Part shown: one piece after another, positions 1-4,850 of the stretch
How the letters are laid out: each line of letters opens with the position of its first letter
Position numbering within the stretch: position 1 is the first letter of the stretch
Source of the DNA: Verrucomicrobiia bacterium
GTDB taxonomy: Bacteria; Verrucomicrobiota; Verrucomicrobiia; Limisphaerales; DASXHY01
NCBI GenBank assembly: GCA_035629175.1
Contig: DASPIL010000073.1
Coordinates: forward strand, 3,575-67,574
Direction: 5' to 3'
DNA length: 64,000 nt
Notes under the pieces: model-generated
Database searches by the model: none
Seen by the model: only the letters and a program-made list of their open reading frames with translations
What the model was told of the DNA's origin: nothing
Position numbers and translations under genes: made by a program

Positions 1-1608
1 AAAATCGTGGGCGGAAGTAATGCGTTCAGCGGCGGGGGTGAGAATGATCTCACTGGTTGGAATCTGTTCGATGAGTTGCTTCGTCGCCAGGGTCCGGAGC
101 AACAATACAAAGTCGGTTGCTGAAACGGAACGAAACGGGCCTCTCACCGCAAGGGATTCATGGAGATTCGAGGCCGACATTCCTCCCGTTTGCTTCAAAT
201 GGCTGAACACTTGATGCACAAGTGTGCTCAGGTGCATCTTCTGCGTTTCCGTCGGTTCAAGCCACTTTTGCTGCATCAGCCGTGTCAGAGCAATACTGCG
301 GAGCAGATCGGGAAAGAGCAGGTCGGTTAGCCGACTGCCCGCGTGAGGTGATTCCTCACGCGCATATAGTCGCATGATTGAGGACTCGCCCTCACGGCGA
401 CCCGAACGGCCGAGTCTTTGGACAAATGATGCAACACTCCAAGGCGGATCAATTTGACCAACGGCTCGCACTGAACCGATATCAATTCCCATTTCGAGGG
501 TGCTGGAGCAAATCGCCGTTGTCGGGACGCCACTTTTTAGCGCGGTTTCGGTTTCCTCGCGGAGTTCTTTGGCGACTGACCCGTGGTGAATCATGAACGG
601 GTCATGAGGCCATTTCTGTTTGGCCACTCGATCATGCACCCGGACCGCGAGTTCCTCGGCAGTTCGTCGAGAATTGACGAAGACAAGATTGGTGGAAGTG
701 GCAAAATTGCGAACGACATCGTCCGCAACATCATCAAGATCATCCGGTGAATCAGATTCGTCGGCTGGTTTTGGTGTGTTATTTTCAGTTCGCGGCGATT
801 CACCGGCGGCGAGCAATTGTTCGGCAGTTTTGTGCCGAACAAACTCCAGGATCTCCGCCGGCGTGAGTCGCGGCGCACAGTTGCCGGCCTTTCGCGCATC
901 GGGTCGCTTCAGCACCGCTTTAAGTGCAAATCGCACCTCCCGCCCCGCGCCGGAATCTTGAACGAGCGTGACAGTTCCCGGTGCATCTGGCGCGAGAAAC
1001 TGTTTACCCATCTCAGGATCACCGAGCGTCGCGGAAAGGCCGATCAGGCGTGGCTGCCGCCCAGTCGCGGCGCACAATCGCGAGAGTAAGCTGAGAAGAT
1101 GAACGCCTCGGACGTTGCCGAGAAACGAATGAACTTCGTCCACGACGACAAATTCCAATTCACGATAGAGGCGTGGCACTTGGGCCCCGTAGTTGATGAA
1201 ATTTGATTCGAGTGACTCCGGCGTAATGAGGAGAATGCCGCCGGGGTTGCGACGGAGAGCTTGTTTGTGGGATGCGGAAACATCGCCGTGCCAGCGATGA
1301 ACCGGGACTTCCATGCGCTCACACAAGTGATCAAGCCGACCAAATTGGTCATTGATTAGGGCCTTGAGCGGTCCGACGTAGATGGCGCGAACAGAATCAT
1401 GCGGCCCTGCGGCGAGTGTCGAAATGATCGGGAGAAAGGCCGCTTCGGTCTTGCCGCCTGCGGTGGCCGCGCAGATGAGCAGATGACTGCTACCACCGAG
1501 CAGTGTTTGGATGGCTTCGGTTTGAATGGGACGAAGCTGCTTCCAGCCCATCTCCCAGATGGCGCGTTGGACGCCGGGATGCAGGAGGGCGAAAGCGGCC
1601 TGACTCAT
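1..1608 (-). CDS. SF2 DEAD/DEAH-box (Lhr-like) helicase, N-terminal 536 codons; gene runs off the left edge (Shango SngC / BrxHI-like)
   Basis: Absent from the ORF track because it has no stop inside the window. I checked the minus-strand frame from ATG 1608-1606 codon by codon down to position 1 and found no stop. Motifs: RPIQ (Q motif), Walker A AATAGGKTEA (1441-1470), DEVH (1129-1140), GLSATLG, QRLGRSGRR. Its ATG overlaps the TAA of the upstream ATPase gene (TAATG). Confidence 0.85.
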   Translation of the reverse strand, partial: MSQAAFALLHPGVQRAIWEMGWKQLRPIQTEAIQTLLGGSSHLLICAATAGGKTEAAFLPIISTLAAGPHDSVRAIYVGPLKALINDQFGRLDHLCERMEVPVHRWHGDVSASHKQALRRNPGGILLITPESLESNFINYGAQVPRLYRELEFVVVDEVHSFLGNVRGVHLLSLLSRLCAATGRQPRLIGLSATLGDPEMGKQFLAPDAPGTVTLVQDSGAGREVRFALKAVLKRPDARKAGNCAPRLTPAEILEFVRHKTAEQLLAAGESPRTENNTPKPADESDSPDDLDDVADDVVRNFATSTNLVFVNSRRTAEELAVRVHDRVAKQKWPHDPFMIHHGSVAKELREETETALKSGVPTTAICSSTLEMGIDIGSVRAVGQIDPPWSVASFVQRLGRSGRREGESSIMRLYAREESPHAGSRLTDLLFPDLLRSIALTRLMQQKWLEPTETQKMHLSTLVHQVFSHLKQTGGMSASNLHESLAVRGPFRSVSATDFVLLLRTLATKQLIEQIPTSEIILTPAAERITSAHDF

Positions 1609-2945
1609 TAGAGTTTGAAGGAGGTTAAGTCTCCGTCTGGTTCGTCTTCGGGGACGACACCGCGCGCCACTTCTTCCTCGACCGAGGCAGGCCCGGCGGG
1701 CTTCTGCATGAAGCCGGAGTTTAGAAAGTCCTGCCACTTCTTGTCGGGATTCTGCTCCAGCACGCTCGACAGCCCGACGAAAGAGCGAACAACATCGCGC
1801 GGCGTCTTGTAGAATTCAGCCCCCATCGTTTCGTTTGCCTTTTGCAGCACCGCAACCAGCGTGTCGTCCGGCACGAGATATTTCTGTGGATTACCACTGG
1901 CGTGGACATGCCGGATGTTGCGCAGAAGAACAAAAAGGTCCTCCGGGGTCAGATTGGCCAGACGGACGACCGGCCCGGAGAAATCCACGACGCCGTCACC
2001 GGCGAAGCGGTTTTCGGAAAGTCGGGTGCGGAGCGCTTCGTAGCTGAACAGGCCGCGGCGTTTATCTTCCAGGCATTCATCCGTCCCAGCCAGAAGGAAT
2101 CCCAATCCGCCGACGCTGCCCTGAAGACAATCATTCAGGATTGTTAGAATCGCCTCGTAGTTTGATTGGCGGGCACGAGAGTTTGGCAGACGATGGGAAA
2201 GAACCACCATCTCGTCGAGACCAACAAGCAGCCCGGCGTATCCGGCCAACCGGCAAAATGCCGCCATCAGTTTCAGGCTGTCGTAAAAATTCTCGTCATC
2301 AATAATTCGCCGCACGTCGAGTAATTCGCGTGCTTCGGTCTTGGTGCTGAATTCACCCCTCAGCCATCGCAATGCGGCGGCCTGCAATTCATCATTGTGG
2401 TCTACGTGTCCCTCGTAGTAACGGGACAGGACCTCTGCAAACTCAAAGCCGCCGACATAATCTTGTAGACTGCGCAGGTCGGCAAGAATTTGCTTTTTTA
2501 CATCCTCTGGTGTTCCACCCTTCTGCGTCACGGCATGGTGAACCTGCGAAATCCAACCTTCAATGAGATTACGAAGCGCACCACCGTCCGGTTTGCCTTT
2601 CGTGGCAAGGTTGCGCATCAATTCCGACCAAAGAGCGCGGGACTGGCCCTGCGTAGCTTGAATGCGGCGTTCCATCGTAAAATCGGCCTGAGCAACAACC
2701 AGCCGACGTTGCAACGCAAGCGTGCGAACCAGGTTCACGAAGAAACTTTTCCCGCTGCCAAATCGCCCGACAACTATACGAAATGCTGAACCGCCCTGTT
2801 CCACTCGCTCCAAGTCCGAGAGCAGCGCCGCCACCTCCTGCTTGCGTCCGACTTGGATCAGGTGCAGACCGAGCTTGGGCACGAGGCCCGCTTGGAGTGA
2901 TTGGAGAACTGCGTCACGTTCACGGCGCTTAATCGGTTCGCTCAT
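1608..2945 (-). CDS. P-loop ATPase of the DUF2791 / BrxD type (Shango SngB-like)
   Basis: 445-aa ORF with Walker A GRFGSGKS and Walker-B-like LLVGLDEM. The N-terminal RRERDAVLQSLQAGLVP... region resembles BREX BrxD/DUF2791 ATPases. The ATG at 2945 lies 3 nt after the stop of the upstream ORF. Confidence 0.75.
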   Translation of the reverse strand: MSEPIKRRERDAVLQSLQAGLVPKLGLHLIQVGRKQEVAALLSDLERVEQGGSAFRIVVGRFGSGKSFFVNLVRTLALQRRLVVAQADFTMERRIQATQGQSRALWSELMRNLATKGKPDGGALRNLIEGWISQVHHAVTQKGGTPEDVKKQILADLRSLQDYVGGFEFAEVLSRYYEGHVDHNDELQAAALRWLRGEFSTKTEARELLDVRRIIDDENFYDSLKLMAAFCRLAGYAGLLVGLDEMVVLSHRLPNSRARQSNYEAILTILNDCLQGSVGGLGFLLAGTDECLEDKRRGLFSYEALRTRLSENRFAGDGVVDFSGPVVRLANLTPEDLFVLLRNIRHVHASGNPQKYLVPDDTLVAVLQKANETMGAEFYKTPRDVVRSFVGLSSVLEQNPDKKWQDFLNSGFMQKPAGPASVEEEVARGVVPEDEPDGDLTSFKL

Positions 2946-2948
2946 AGT

Positions 2949-3179
2949 TCAGGTATTTAGCAGGGAACGATGGACGGTAACGGAATCCTCCCCTTCAAGA
3001 AGGAAGTCGCCAAGTTGTTGATCGGCCCATTCGTTGACGGCGTCGAAAACGCTCAGGGGCATGAACTGATGCTCGCGCGCCAGCGATTCGAACTCGGTTC
3101 GACTCCAGGAGTCTCTTACGGCGAGGCGCTGCACGATCGGATGCCATTTCGCATCCAAGGATTGGAGCTTGCCCTGCAA
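2949..3179 (-). CDS. 76-codon TerB-C-like ORF, probable C-terminal remnant of a SngA/TerB-domain gene
   Basis: The sequence LDAKWHPIVQRLAVRDSWSRTEFESLAREHQFMPLSVFDAVNEWADQQLGDFLLEGEDSVTV resembles the C-terminal module of TerB-C domain proteins (W-sr-el, INEwA, GD-lleg-d pattern). There is no ATG or GTG start; the first possible start is TTG at 3179. The frame opens after a TAG at 3216-3218, which lies inside a repeat. Confidence 0.45.
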   Translation of the reverse strand: MQGKLQSLDAKWHPIVQRLAVRDSWSRTEFESLAREHQFMPLSVFDAVNEWADQQLGDFLLEGEDSVTVHRSLLNT

Positions 3180-3202
3180 AATGGTTGTGAAAGCAATGGG
3201 GG

Positions 3203-3305
3203 AATGGGGTCGCGTCTAAAGAGTTGACAAATCAGAATTGATGTCGGAGAGCAGCCAAGTGCAGGTGAGAATGTAAAACATTTAGACGCGACCCCATTGC
3301 GTTTT
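3203..3305. repeat. 103-nt palindrome-ended element, copy 1 (MITE-like)
   Basis: Terminal inverted repeats aatggggtcgcgtctaaa (3203-3220) and tttagacgcgaccccatt (3281-3298) form a perfect 18 bp. It is identical to copy 2 except for one base (3246 g versus 3477 c). It carries TTGACA at 3224-3229. Confidence 0.9.
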
Positions 3306-3433
3306 GTTGGTGTTCCTGGCCTCAAACTATTTGAACAACTTTGGCAACTGAGTAAACGGAACCACATCTTGTGCTGCAATTGCTGAACCGCTGAAAAATT
3401 GCATGGGCACGAGGTCGTCCGTTACGCAAATGC

Positions 3434-3536
3434 AATGGGGTCGCGTCTAAAGAGTTGACAAATCAGAATTGATGTCCGAGAGCAGCCAAGTGCAGGTGAG
3501 AATGTAAAACATTTAGACGCGACCCCATTGCGTTTT
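3434..3536. repeat. 103-nt palindrome-ended element, copy 2 (MITE-like)
   Basis: Same unit, offset by 231 nt. Here the inverted repeat extends to 20 bp (3432-3451 with 3512-3531). Flanking sequence is unrelated to the copy 1 flanks. Confidence 0.9.
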
Positions 3537-3821
3537 CCGAGAAGAGGCGCCTTCGTATGGACAAGAAAAGCCCGTCGAAAATCGCTCCATAGATTCAAAT
3601 TCGAGATCCAAAACGTCGTAAGACACGCGTTTGCAACAGCTTGCTTTGGCGAGACCAGGGGACGTAATCGAATAGCGGAAGCCGGGTTAAGGGGGGATAG
3701 CCGGGCAGATGAACACGGATTCGGAAACAGCCGCCTCTACCATTTCTCTGCGACCTCTGCGTGCTCCTGTTAAGCGTCTTCACTCCGTCTCCTGCGGCGG
3801 AGAGTTGCTGAATTGCAGACA

Positions 3822-4850
3822 TCACAAACCACGCAAGTCCATGACGAAGATGCCGTGGCCAACGCCAGCGGCTTCCGTCGACTTGGCAAGCTGAAATGCC
3901 ATGAACCGCCCATCATCGCTCACTACAGGATTGGACGCTCGATAGCCCGGATACTTCGTGAAGAACGTGACCTGCTCATAGGTTCCACTGCCATCCAGCG
4001 TCAGCTTGAAGATGTCGGCGAAACGGGAGCCGCGCAGGTTGTGTTTGTCGCATTCCACAAGAATCGCCCTGCCGTCGGGAAAAATGCCCTCGGGCTCGTC
4101 ATATTGATTTGTTGCGTTGGAGTAGTTCACGACTGCCTTGGATTGCAGATCGATTCCGCAAACCTCAGTTCCCTGATATCCGTAAGCGCTGAAGATCAGT
4201 TCCTTCTCGTCGGACGGACGAAAGTTCTGCGTTTCCAGCGTGCAACGAAACGGCAGGTCCCCGCTGTTCACAATCAGGCGGTGGTTCGTCAACTTCGGCT
4301 TTCCCCCTTCATAAACAAGGTCCGCCTCCTGCATCCTGGAACTGCCATTTAACATATTCCCGGGATACTGCGCGGCGACATGAGTCCACGCAATGTGCAT
4401 GCGCTGGCGGGAAACTGCCGGCCCTTCGCTGCACTTCGTTTCCAGCCGGACTGCGGGCTTGTCGAAGTTCTTGTCGAGCACGTACAGGAAGCATTGCACC
4501 CGCGCTTCATTCGGGCGCGACGGATCAAACGCATCCGGTCCTGAGAGCAGAACATCTCCATTGGCCAGATACAGGGCGCGGGTGTAGCCGTGATGCGGAT
4601 AATGCGCGGTGAGGTTGCGGATCGATCGTGACTCAATGTCAATTTCCATGGCGTCGCCAAACGTTTTGGAGAGAAAGAGAATGCGCTTCCCGTCATGCGA
4701 CCAGTCCGCGCGCTCTCCAAATCCCGTAAGCCGGGTAATGTGCGGCGGCAGATTGTCGGCCGGGTGCGTCGAATCGGCCGCGGCAGCGCGTGGAATATGC
4801 GCAATCGTTGCAATGAGTAAACAAGTAGCAAGCGCCTGGCGGGTTTTCAT
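3822..4850 (-). CDS. Secreted TolB/PD40-like beta-propeller protein
   Basis: 342-aa ORF with signal peptide MKTRQALATCLLIATIAHIPRAAAA. It has repeated PD40-like strands (WSHDGKRILFLS, FPDGRAILV, VSDDGRFMAFQ). Confidence 0.65.
   Translation of the reverse strand: MKTRQALATCLLIATIAHIPRAAAADSTHPADNLPPHITRLTGFGERADWSHDGKRILFLSKTFGDAMEIDIESRSIRNLTAHYPHHGYTRALYLANGDVLLSGPDAFDPSRPNEARVQCFLYVLDKNFDKPAVRLETKCSEGPAVSRQRMHIAWTHVAAQYPGNMLNGSSRMQEADLVYEGGKPKLTNHRLIVNSGDLPFRCTLETQNFRPSDEKELIFSAYGYQGTEVCGIDLQSKAVVNYSNATNQYDEPEGIFPDGRAILVECDKHNLRGSRFADIFKLTLDGSGTYEQVTFFTKYPGYRASNPVVSDDGRFMAFQLAKSTEAAGVGHGIFVMDLRGL

What the first reader, a model, noticed from the sequence alone, without database searches (positions are those of the whole stretch)
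3203..3536. Two tandem 103-nt elements with perfect 18-20 bp terminal inverted repeats (MITE-like or structured-RNA locus)
- Copies at 3203-3305 and 3434-3536 differ by a single base and are separated by 128 nt of unrelated sequence.
- Each copy can fold into a long hairpin (18-20 bp perfect stem, about 60-nt loop) and ends in GCGTTTT.
- Each carries a consensus TTGACA hexamer.
- They occupy the 640-bp gap between a beta-propeller gene and the defence-like operon, exactly where the operon promoter should be.
- No transposase, cas gene or integrase is present in the window.
- Near-identity of the two copies implies recent duplication or mobility.
Basis: seen in the sequence. Interest (0 to 1): 0.65.

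Follow-up and report, generated by a model that had tools for sequence, protein, structure and literature searches.

The report
Miniature tyrosine-transposase repeat truncating a defence gene
The two near-identical hairpin repeats are real: they are small non-coding mobile elements built from the terminal inverted repeats of a tyrosine-transposase insertion sequence (a known but little-studied class), and the outer edge of one of them is where a phage-defence gene (sngA of a Shango system) is cut off.

Summary
The unit is 109 nt (copy 2, 3428-3536). Copy 1 is 3190-3305.

- **Copy number.** The contig that continues the window holds a third copy, and a metagenome contig holds a fourth. All have different flanks and no target-site duplication. 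Depth in the source metagenome suggests about 4 copies of this unit and about 20 copies of its left arm.
- **Origin of the arms.** The roughly 30-nt arms (GGGGTCGCGTCTAAA-N3-TTGACA) are the terminal inverted repeats of about 1.05-1.1 kb elements. These encode a RAYT-like Y1/HUH transposase with motifs NHYH, FQ and YIHLNP. This is the "TIRtron/TIRYT" class (Di Nocera 2013; Quentin 2018, subclass 2.1).
- **Likely cognate element.** A full-length element whose left arm is identical over 27 nt occurs in the same metagenomes. Its depth there equals the window's.
- **Effect on the defence operon.** Relatives with 91% DNA identity have an intact sngA of 747-748 codons. Their homology to the window stops at the outer edge of copy 1. 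Only the last 75-88 codons of sngA remain, while sngB and sngC are intact.
- **Other readings.** No evidence supports a structured RNA or a promoter.
- **Verdict.** A new member of a known kind, of moderate interest. In related loci, tandem "stutter" duplications recur at the arm edge (GGGG|TCGC) and remain unexplained.

The parts
3190..3305 (+). Copy 1 of the 'family A' TIR doublet. Left arm about 3190-3232, interior about 3233-3271, right arm about 3272-3305. The left border is ambiguous by 1 nt.
   Evidence: Homology of relatives L131/L132 and of runs X3/X10/X13 ends at 3190.
3195..3210 (+). Imperfect 8-nt tandem duplication AATGGGGG|AATGGGGT at the outer edge of the copy 1 left arm ('edge stutter').
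   Evidence: Read from the sequence. The same phenomenon occurs at 28 of 152 arms elsewhere, against 4 of 456 control positions.
3206..3229 (+). Left-arm core GGGGTCGCGTCTAAA-GAG-TTGACA of copy 1. Within a 27-nt stretch (3203-3229) that is identical to the left arm of the full-length element in L045.
3306..3427 (.). Unique 122-nt spacer between the copies. Single copy by depth, with no similarity to SngA or to relatives.
3428..3536 (+). Copy 2 of the family A doublet, the canonical 109-nt unit. Left arm 3428-3463, right arm 3503-3536.
2949..3189 (-). Remnant of sngA (TerB-C end of the Shango TerB protein). Only the last 75-88 of about 740 codons remain. The open frame runs on into the element and is closed by the arm's TTTAGA.
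   Evidence: Pfam TerB_C and PADLOC SngA profile positions 451-519 of 528. tblastn with intact SngA of relatives. Intact sngA of 738-842 aa in L008, L009, L131-L135.
1608..2945 (-). sngB (BrxD-like ATPase), full length.
   Evidence: PADLOC SngB 1.6e-164, Pfam BrxC_BrxD.
1..1737 (-). sngC (DEAD/DEAH helicase). Its 3' part lies beyond the window. It is complete at 769 aa in contig L006.
   Evidence: PADLOC SngC 3.2e-177. Gene table of L006.
3537..3821 (.). Unique sequence between copy 2 and the beta-propeller gene (3822-4850, - strand). It contains an unrelated short repeat at about 3708-3780.

Best explanation
The two repeats are copies of a miniature, non-autonomous mobile element. Each is a 'TIR doublet' made of two inverted arms of about 30 nt (consensus (C)AATGGGGTCGCGTCTAAA-N3-TTGACA) around a non-coding interior of about 45 nt.

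The arms are the terminal inverted repeats of a 'TIRtron', an IS-like element of about 1.05-1.1 kb. Its single gene encodes a TIR-associated Y1/HUH tyrosine transposase (TIRYT). This protein is RAYT-related, falls in TnpA_REP subclass 2.1, and often has a DnaA-C-like HTH tail.

What is shown:
- The whole 109-nt doublet is the unit that multiplies. Four copies at 98-99% identity have different flanks and no target-site duplication.
- Full-length elements with these arms exist. One whose left arm is identical over 27 nt is present at matching depth in the metagenomes that hold this genome.
- A fragment of its right end lies on the window's own contig.
- Homology of sngA to its intact relatives stops at the outer edge of copy 1.

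What is inferred:
- The doublet is mobilised in trans by the TIRYT. This would occur through a single-stranded intermediate in which the doublet folds into its 24-bp hairpin, as for IS200/IS605 and REP/RAYT enzymes.
- An insertion into sngA was followed by loss of the upstream part of about 2 kb. The most simple route is recombination between two direct copies.
- The Shango system is thereby probably inactivated, leaving sngB and sngC intact but without their native 5' region.
For: Repeat and hairpin:
- Searches confirm the repeat and its fold.

More copies with other flanks:
- A third copy lies at L006 10146-10254 and a fourth in L094. Neither has a TSD.
- Depth of the interior unitig is 54.7 against a baseline of 12.5 in X1, and 34.2 against 8.0 in X2, which gives about 4.3 copies. 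The left arm is at about 255, or about 20 copies.

Arms flank a Y1 transposase gene in inverted orientation:
- L060: arm at 490, gene 542-1525, arm at 1521-1535. L072, L119, L017 and L057 are similar, and so is L045 (arm at 15, gene 69-1112, arm at 1108-1122).
- The arm core starts 52-54 nt before the start codon. The stop codon is the TAG of the right arm's TTTAGA.

The protein family:
- Pfam finds Y1_Tnp plus Bac_DnaA_C.
- The best NCBIfam model is REP_Tyr_transpos.
- The best PDB match is E. coli TnpA_REP, 4ER8, with the HuH and YI.xNPV motifs aligned.
- The motifs NHYH, FQ and YIHLNP match subclass 2.1 in Table 1 of PMC6006769.
- TIRYT/TIRtron elements, the GGGGWSAS TIR motif and 'dimers or clusters' of TIRs are described in PMC3733652.

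Same-genome link:
- L105 is 99.98% identical to the window's contig and comes from the same JGI metagenome as L045 and L094.
- L045 and L047 lie at 100% identity in X1 and X2. Their unique-flank depths are 11.4-12.2 and 7.8-8.1, equal to the window's.
- L006 10063-10135 is 70/71 identical to the right end of L045.

Empty site and truncation:
- L131, L132 and L133 (SngB 97-98% aa, DNA 91%) have sngA of 747-748 aa and align to the window only up to 3185-3190.
- X3, X10 and X13 diverge at the same place.
- tblastn finds only SngA residues from about 651 to the end (L008 numbering) anywhere in the window.
Against: - No experiment or read-level polymorphism shows transposition.
The cognate TIRYT is therefore linked to this genome only by co-abundance in two runs and by a 71-nt fragment.
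- X1 and X2 are probably the data the assembly came from, so they are not independent support.
- The family A interior has no significant similarity to the full-length element. Its origin as a deletion derivative is not shown, unlike family C.
- The right arm differs from the right arm of L045 at 7 of 32 positions.
- The arm motif GGGGTCGC fits the published GGGGWSAS at 7 of 8 positions.
- Pfam does not detect the DnaA-C-like domain in the L045 protein.
- How sngA lost its 5' part is inferred, not seen. The truncated operon may have been acquired in that state.
Confidence: 0.8

Rival explanations
1. A structured small RNA or cis-regulatory RNA locus. The hairpins would be transcribed and act as RNA, for example as a riboregulator or as an mRNA stabiliser or terminator in the way REP elements can.
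For: The predicted hairpin is strong on both strands. The + strand hairpin is followed by TTTT. The elements lie downstream of the minus-strand beta-propeller gene and upstream of sngB/C, so read-through transcripts would contain them. REPs are known to have such host effects (PMC3733652).
Against: Rfam gives only a sub-threshold chance hit, 27 bits against a gathering score of 90. No promoter-like site is found on either strand in 2900-3900. The paired arms are conserved in sequence, not by covariation. The same arms occur singly, and also 1 kb apart around a transposase gene. Interiors are unrelated between families. Inner arm positions of this very element are not complementary (GAGTTGACAAAT against TGTTTTACATTC). 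No RNA run holds the unit.
Confidence: 0.06
2. A purely local tandem duplication of a 231-bp segment carrying a palindrome. The unit would not be mobile.
For: The two copies are 231 bp apart, in direct orientation and 99% identical. Three of the four copies lie within about 7 kb.
Against: The spacer is not duplicated, because the flanks of the copies differ right beyond the unit. Copies 3 and 4 have unrelated flanks. Depth indicates about 4 dispersed copies. Related doublets and solo arms occur in four Verrucomicrobiota MAGs and in at least 119 metagenome contigs.
Confidence: 0.02
3. A classical MITE, meaning a deletion derivative of a DDE-transposase insertion sequence that is moved by cut-and-paste.
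For: It has terminal inverted repeats of 24-30 bp, is small and has no coding capacity.
Against: None of the 4 copies has a target-site duplication. Every full-length element found with these arms encodes a Y1/HUH transposase, not a DDE enzyme. The only DDE gene seen, in L017, is a separate IS nested next to a TIRtron.
Confidence: 0.03
4. A canonical REPIN of a domesticated, single-copy RAYT, as in Pseudomonas or E. coli.
For: The architecture is the same: two inverted short repeats, a spacer, a hairpin, the doublet as the replicating unit, and no TSD. The best NCBIfam and PDB matches of the transposase are RAYT/TnpA_REP.
Against: The arms have no GTAG foot and are not themselves good palindromes. 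The transposase scores below the RAYT cut-off (40 against 80 bits). It is about 345 aa with an extra C-terminal domain. It occurs in 2 copies on single short contigs, L017 and L045, which is IS-like behaviour. Its motifs place it in subclass 2.1 (Bertels group 1), not in the REPIN-associated groups 2 and 3.
Confidence: 0.06
5. attC-like recombination sites of an integron-type cassette array (a CALIN). Direct repeats would bracket cassettes such as the sng operon.
For: All three local copies are in the same orientation and bracket sngA'BC. In L005 two doublets bracket a small ORF.
Against: The stem is fully paired, with no extrahelical bases. There is no GTTRRRY/RYYYAAC core. No integrase is present. 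The arms are demonstrably the ends of Y1-transposase elements.
Confidence: 0.01

Closest known systems
TIRtrons / TIRYT-associated TIR repeat families (Di Nocera, De Gregorio & Rocco 2013, BMC Genomics 14:522; TnpA_REP subclass 2.1 of Quentin et al. 2018, BMC Genomics 19:475)
   Same: A RAYT-like Y1 transposase gene is flanked by long inverted repeats that start with GGGG. The upstream TIR lies at a fixed distance from the gene and the downstream TIR overlaps its 3' end. The protein has an HTH tail (Bac_DnaA_C). Its motifs are NH[YF]H, FQ and Y[IV]HLNP. The TIRs also form moderately abundant families of singles, dimers and clusters.
   Different: This is a Verrucomicrobiota lineage with its own arm sequence, GGGGTCGC, which fits GGGGWSAS at 7 of 8 positions. 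Here the dimer is shown to multiply as a unit and to mark the breakpoint of a defence gene. The edge 'stutter' duplications are not mentioned in the two papers read.
REPINs and RAYTs (Bertels & Rainey 2011, PLoS Genet 7:e1002132)
   Same: Two inverted short repeats with a spacer form a hairpin. The element is non-autonomous, the doublet is the replicative unit, there is no TSD, and the transposase is a Y1/HUH enzyme.
   Different: There is no GTAG-tagged palindromic REP. The copy number is low, about 4 for the unit and about 20 for the arms. The transposase is longer, multi-copy and IS-like rather than single-copy and domesticated.
IS200/IS605 family and their palindrome-associated miniature derivatives
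   Same: Y1/HUH chemistry, no target duplication, and probably single-stranded intermediates.
   Different: IS200/IS605 ends carry subterminal hairpins in the same orientation and no long terminal inverted repeats. Their transposases are about 150 aa with the Y...Q motif.
Classical MITEs (e.g. Correia, ERIC, Nezha)
   Same: Size, terminal inverted repeats, hairpin potential and intergenic location.
   Different: There is no TSD, and the autonomous partner encodes a tyrosine (HUH) transposase, not a DDE transposase.

Membership tests
TIRtron / TIRYT-associated TIR repeats | The repeat is the terminal inverted repeat flanking a RAYT-like Y1 transposase gene. | tested here: met
   L060, L072 and L045 have inward-facing arms 1046-1108 nt apart around a Y1_Tnp gene. 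L119, L017, L057 and L052 have one arm at the expected gene end.
TIRtron / TIRYT-associated TIR repeats | The TIR carries the motif GGGGWSAS. | tested here: inconclusive
   The arms read GGGGTCGC, which fits at 7 of 8 positions (G where the consensus has A).
TIRtron / TIRYT-associated TIR repeats | The transposase has the HuH motif, a catalytic Tyr in Y[IV]HLNP, and FQ (subclass 2.1 signature). It is longer than a RAYT and has a C-terminal HTH. | tested here: met
   L045 has NHYH, FQ and YIHLNP in 347 aa. L017 has NHFH, FQ and YLHLNP in 345 aa, plus Bac_DnaA_C. Pfam does not detect the HTH domain in L045.
TIRtron / TIRYT-associated TIR repeats | The TIRs form a repeated family of singles, dimers and clusters in the genome. 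| tested here: met
   The held loci contain about 25 distinct mini-pairs of 79-290 nt, about 130 unpaired arms and 4 full-length pairs. Clusters occur in the window, L004, L005, L047 and L102.
TIRtron / TIRYT-associated TIR repeats | A cognate TIRYT gene lies in the same genome as the window's doublets. | tested here: inconclusive
   L045 is at 100% identity and matching depth in X1 and X2. A right-end fragment lies on the window's contig. The whole genome was not searchable.
TIRtron / TIRYT-associated TIR repeats | The transposase acts on the TIRs (binding, cleavage, mobilisation). | not testable with these tools
   This needs biochemistry or a transposition assay. According to PMC3733652 it has not been shown for any TIRYT either.
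REPIN / RAYT | Each half is a REP, that is a short imperfect palindrome with a conserved GTAG-type 5' tetranucleotide. | tested here: not met
   The arms have no GTAG, and the window's arms have only weak self-complementarity (sequence).
REPIN / RAYT | The transposase meets the RAYT model and is single-copy. | tested here: not met
   NF047646 scores 40 bits against a cut-off of 80. Two copies lie on L017 and on L045.
Classical (DDE) MITE | Target-site duplication flanks the TIRs. | tested here: not met
   The flanks of copies 1-4 share no direct repeat.
Integron attC | R'/R'' core sites (GTTRRRY), extrahelical bases in the folded strand, and an associated integrase. | tested here: not met
   The stem is fully paired. 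The ends are AAATGC and GCGTTTT. No integrase was seen near any copy.
Shango (SngABC) defence system, for the adjacent operon | Three genes are present: a TerB-N/TerB-C protein (SngA), an ATPase (SngB) and a helicase (SngC). | tested here: not met
   SngB and SngC are full length. SngA is reduced to profile positions 451-519 of 528. It is therefore a degraded Shango locus.

The most novel reading that the evidence does not exclude
The tandem 'stutter' duplications have one endpoint fixed at GGGG|TCGC at the outer edge of the arms and the other endpoint variable. They may mark the cleavage site of the TIRYT. If so, they would reveal a nick-primed, replicative or template-switching step. The same step could generate adjacent rearrangements such as the sngA truncation and the truncated TIRtron next to copy 3. 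That would give the first mechanistic handle on a transposase class for which no activity has been shown.
Probability: 0.2. Interest if true: 0.55.

Novelty: new member of a known kind. Interest (0 to 1): 0.35.

Why it matters
- It explains an odd 'intergenic gap' as the scar of mobile-element activity that probably disabled a Shango anti-phage system. sngB and sngC are still intact, so the event looks recent.
- It documents in Verrucomicrobiota a complete small population of a poorly studied transposon class. The population comprises full-length TIRtrons, a demonstrable deletion derivative, and doublets that multiply as units.
- The recurrent edge duplications at GGGG|TCGC give a testable prediction for where these untested tyrosine transposases cut.

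Tried and rejected
- **RNA and promoter.** Rfam gave nothing above threshold. The sigma-70 promoter scan found 0 sites.
- **Viral contigs.** The arm pattern had 0 matches.
- **Expression.** No RNA run holds the unit, so expression is untested.
- **Remnants of the lost sequence.** I looked for remnants of sngA, or of relatives' upstream sequence, in 3306-3821 and found none.
- **Origin of the interior.** I tested whether the family A interior derives from the full-length element or from families B and C. There is no significant similarity (p 0.3-0.9).
- **Empty site on the other side.** I tried to find one through relatives of the beta-propeller gene. That protein is a singleton cluster.
- **A worry that was resolved.** I briefly thought the 95%-identical relatives also had a broken sngA frame. 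This was a 1-nt coordinate slip of mine, resolved by aligning L131.
- **Readings rejected.** attC, classical MITE and strict REPIN were considered and rejected on defining features (see membership tests).
- **L008.** The IS200-like Y1 gene in relative L008 has no arms nearby and is unrelated.
- **Literature.** A search for the arm sequence found only chance primer matches.

Full report
**Observation**

The window holds two direct copies of a 103-nt sequence, at 3203-3305 and 3434-3536, that differ at one base. The arm core GGGGTCGCGTCTAAA occurs four times in the window, twice per copy on opposite strands, against 0.09 expected by chance. Each unit folds far better than shuffled controls. As RNA the z-score is -5.1 on the + strand and -6.2 on the - strand. 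As single-stranded DNA the unit forms a 24-bp stem with one T/G mismatch, z -8.9.

A third copy allowed the borders to be corrected. The ENA contig L006 is 100% identical to the window and extends beyond its start. It carries another copy at L006 10146-10254, about 1.2 kb outside the window, downstream of sngC and in the same orientation. Aligning the three copies shows that the unit is 109 nt, AAATGCAATGGGG...CCCCATTGCGTTTT, which corresponds to 3428-3536 for copy 2. Copy 1 is 3190-3305. It lacks one T and carries an imperfect 8-nt tandem duplication, AATGGGGG|AATGGGGT, at 3195-3210. No copy has a target-site duplication.

**Surroundings**

The minus strand to the left of the repeats carries a Shango defence operon:
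- sngB lies at 1608-2945 (PADLOC SngB 1.6e-164).
- sngC lies at 1-1737 and continues beyond the window (SngC 3.2e-177).
- A 76-codon ORF at 2949-3179 matches only the C-terminal end of SngA, at profile positions 451-519 of 528 and Pfam TerB_C.

Relatives all have an intact sngA of 738-842 codons. This holds for relatives whose SngB is 93-98% identical (L008, L131-L135) and for the more distant L009/L010 (87% SngB identity). The closest relatives are about 91% identical in DNA over 3190 nt. They align with the window from sngC up to position 3185-3190 and no further. Contigs of wastewater and sludge runs that are about 95% identical diverge at the same place. tblastn with intact SngA finds only the last 75-88 residues anywhere in the 64-kb window.

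The outer edge of copy 1 is therefore the breakpoint at which about 2 kb of sngA is missing. sngB (445 aa) and sngC (769 aa in L006) are full length. The spacer (3306-3427) and the stretch 3537-3821 are single-copy and match nothing in the relatives.

**Copy number and mobility**

These hold the window at 100% identity and are probably its source.

- The unitig for the interior of the unit has depth 54.7 in X1 and 34.2 in X2. The unique flanks have 12.5 and 8.0. This gives about 4.3 copies.
- The four copies are accounted for: copies 1, 2 and 3, plus a fourth on the JGI contig L094. The flank of L094 also appears as a loose end in X1.
- The left arm alone has depth of about 255, or about 20 copies. 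It is shared with two other doublet families, B (about 152 nt) and C (about 290 nt).
- The contig carrying families B and C, L047, has the same depth as the window in both runs.

The unit is thus dispersed, multiplies as a whole, and is absent from this site in relatives.

**What the arms are**

A scan of one genome per species with the two 12-nt arm cores, allowing 45-75 nt between them, found five doublets in four MAGs. All four are Verrucomicrobiota (Chthoniobacterales, Limisphaerales and one unclassified). The arms were conserved but the interiors were unrelated.

In these contigs most arms stand alone, about 25 form miniature pairs of 79-290 nt, and four pairs lie 1046-1246 nt apart.

At least three of the four long pairs (L045, L060, L072) enclose a single gene. 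In L060 an arm lies at 490, the gene at 542-1525, and the inverted arm at 1521-1535. L072 and L045 are built the same way, and L119, L017, L057 and L052 show one gene end with its arm. The arm core starts 52-54 nt before the start codon. The stop codon is the TAG of the right arm's TTTAGA.

The protein is about 345 aa and has these features:
- Pfam finds Y1_Tnp and, in L017, Bac_DnaA_C.
- Its best NCBIfam model is the REP-associated tyrosine transposase, below the cut-off.
- Its best solved relative is E. coli TnpA_REP (4ER8), with the HuH and YI.xNPV motifs aligned.
- More than 4500 homologues are on record. Those that carry names are called transposase or RayT, and the NCBI-named ones come from Verrucomicrobiota MAGs.

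**Comparison with what is known**

Di Nocera et al. 2013 (PMC3733652) named RAYT-like genes flanked by long terminal inverted repeats 'TIRtrons' and their proteins 'TIRYTs'. They noted a shared TIR motif, GGGGWSAS. They also noted that the TIRs can form moderately abundant families arranged as singles, dimers or clusters.

Quentin et al. 2018 (PMC6006769) place most TIRYTs in TnpA_REP subclass 2.1. That subclass has the motifs NH[YF]H, FQ and Y[IV]HLNP and C-terminal HTH domains such as Bac_DnaA_C.

- The L045 protein has NHYH, FQ and YIHLNP.
- The L017 protein has NHFH, FQ and YLHLNP.
- The arms read GGGGTCGC, which fits the TIR motif at 7 of 8 positions.

The window's repeats are therefore TIR dimers of a TIRtron family, a known though little-studied kind, in a lineage where I found no description. 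They work like REPINs. They fail the REPIN/RAYT membership tests because they have no GTAG palindromic REP, score below the cut-off, and have a multi-copy transposase. They fail the classical MITE test because they have no TSD and no DDE partner.

**Link to a cognate transposase**

L045 comes from the same JGI metagenome as L105, which is 99.98% identical to the window's contig, and as L094. It carries a full-length element whose left arm, AATGGGGTCGCGTCTAAAGAGTTGACA, is identical to the window's left arm over 27 nt. A second copy begins at its other end.

X1 and X2 hold L045 at 100% identity. Its unique-flank depths are 11.4 and 7.8, the same as the window's baseline. Family C is a clear internal-deletion derivative of this element. 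L006 10063-10135, right next to copy 3, is 70/71 identical to its right end, including the last codons of the transposase.

The family A interior shows no significant similarity to the full-length element. For family A, only the arms tie it to the transposase.

**Mechanism**

What is shown:
- The doublet is the copied unit.
- The arms are the ends of a Y1-transposase element.
- The element's edge is the sngA breakpoint.

What is inferred:
- By analogy with IS200/IS605 and TnpA_REP, the TIRYT acts on single-stranded DNA, in which the doublet folds into its hairpin, and moves it without a target duplication.
- The loss of the 5' two kilobases of sngA followed an insertion into sngA. The most simple route is recombination between two direct copies.
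- Shango is thereby disabled. This rests on my own knowledge that all three genes are needed, and was not tested here.

**Rival readings**

- The RNA and promoter readings gain no support. Rfam gives only a chance-level hit and no sigma-70-like promoter is found.
- TTGACA is a conserved part of the arm. It faces into the element on the + strand, away from the minus-strand sng operon.
- In full-length elements TTGACA sits at TTGACA-17-hexamer-5/7-start codon, for example TTGACA-17-TGAGAT-7-GTG in L045. It may therefore be the -35 box of a leaderless transposase mRNA. This is inference.
- No RNA data exist for this organism.

**An unexplained feature**

At 28 of 152 non-redundant arms, an exact tandem duplication of the outer flank plus the first bases of the arm spans the arm's outer edge. 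The periods are 7-61 nt. The same test is positive at 4 of 456 control positions (odds ratio 25, p 2.6e-14). The duplicated tract most often ends 1-5 nt into the arm, with the mode right after GGGG. The 8-nt duplication in copy 1 is an imperfect example.

One fixed endpoint and one variable endpoint suggest a site-specific nick or replication stall at GGGG|TCGC. I did not find this described in the two papers I read.

**Verdict**

The feature is real and its nature is largely explained. It is a new member of a known kind. Interest is moderate because of the defence-gene truncation and the edge-duplication clue to the transposase's cleavage site.

Noticed in passing
Held loci L001-L129 (e.g. 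L003 1525-1560, L004 2100-2290, L014, L020 4470-4510, L047 14505-14630, L072 650-690, L124 265-370); window 3195-3210: Exact tandem 'stutter' duplications of the outer flank plus the first nucleotides of the arm occur at 28 of 152 arms, against 4 of 456 control positions. The end of the tract peaks right after GGGG of GGGGTCGCG.
   Followed up: partly
window 3708-3780: A different short repeat (ctctgcgacctctgcgtgctcctgttaagcg...). Summed contig depth in X1 reaches about 600 against a baseline of about 12, at roughly 90% likeness and on several long contigs. It is not repeated elsewhere in the window or in the held loci.
   Followed up: partly
L006 10063-10135 (about 1.1 kb beyond the window's start): A fragment of the right end of an L045-type TIRtron, including the last transposase codons and a solo arm. 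It is cut off right where family A copy 3 begins. This is a second case in this genome of a truncated sequence abutting a doublet edge.
   Followed up: yes
L019 2268-2367, L104 137-235, L127 971-1070, L098 4100-4237, L121 5054-5191, L107 1066-1198, L124 282-460: Solo arms lie 1-60 nt beyond the 3' end of tRNA-Arg(CCT) genes in at least four different sequence contexts. In L019 and L127 ARAGORN reads this tRNA with an 8-nt anticodon loop (anticodon 'ccta').
   Followed up: no
L131 1-4443, L133 1-4412: In the closest relatives the intact Shango operon lies directly downstream of Wadjet-like genes (SMC_N/JetC-type and JetD_C), which makes a defence island. The window has a quite different upstream context of beta-propeller and Cu-ATPase genes.
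   Followed up: no
L017 1455-3110: An IS with a DDE transposase (DUF772 plus DDE_Tnp_1_6) sits where the 3' arm of a TIRtron should be. This is a nested insertion. L017 also holds a second TIRtron start at its other end.
   Followed up: no
L045 32-71; L017 4166-4199; L060 508-544: The geometry from arm TTGACA to the transposase start codon is conserved: TTGACA, 16-17 nt, a hexamer, 5-7 nt, then the start. In L045 this is TTGACA-17-TGAGAT-7-GTG. It suggests the arm supplies the -35 box of a leaderless transposase mRNA.
   Followed up: no
L005 3359-4127: Two identical doublets in direct orientation bracket a minus-strand ORF of about 570 nt in a Verrucomicrobiota MAG. The arrangement looks like a cassette and resembles the window's copies bracketing sngA'BC.
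   Followed up: no
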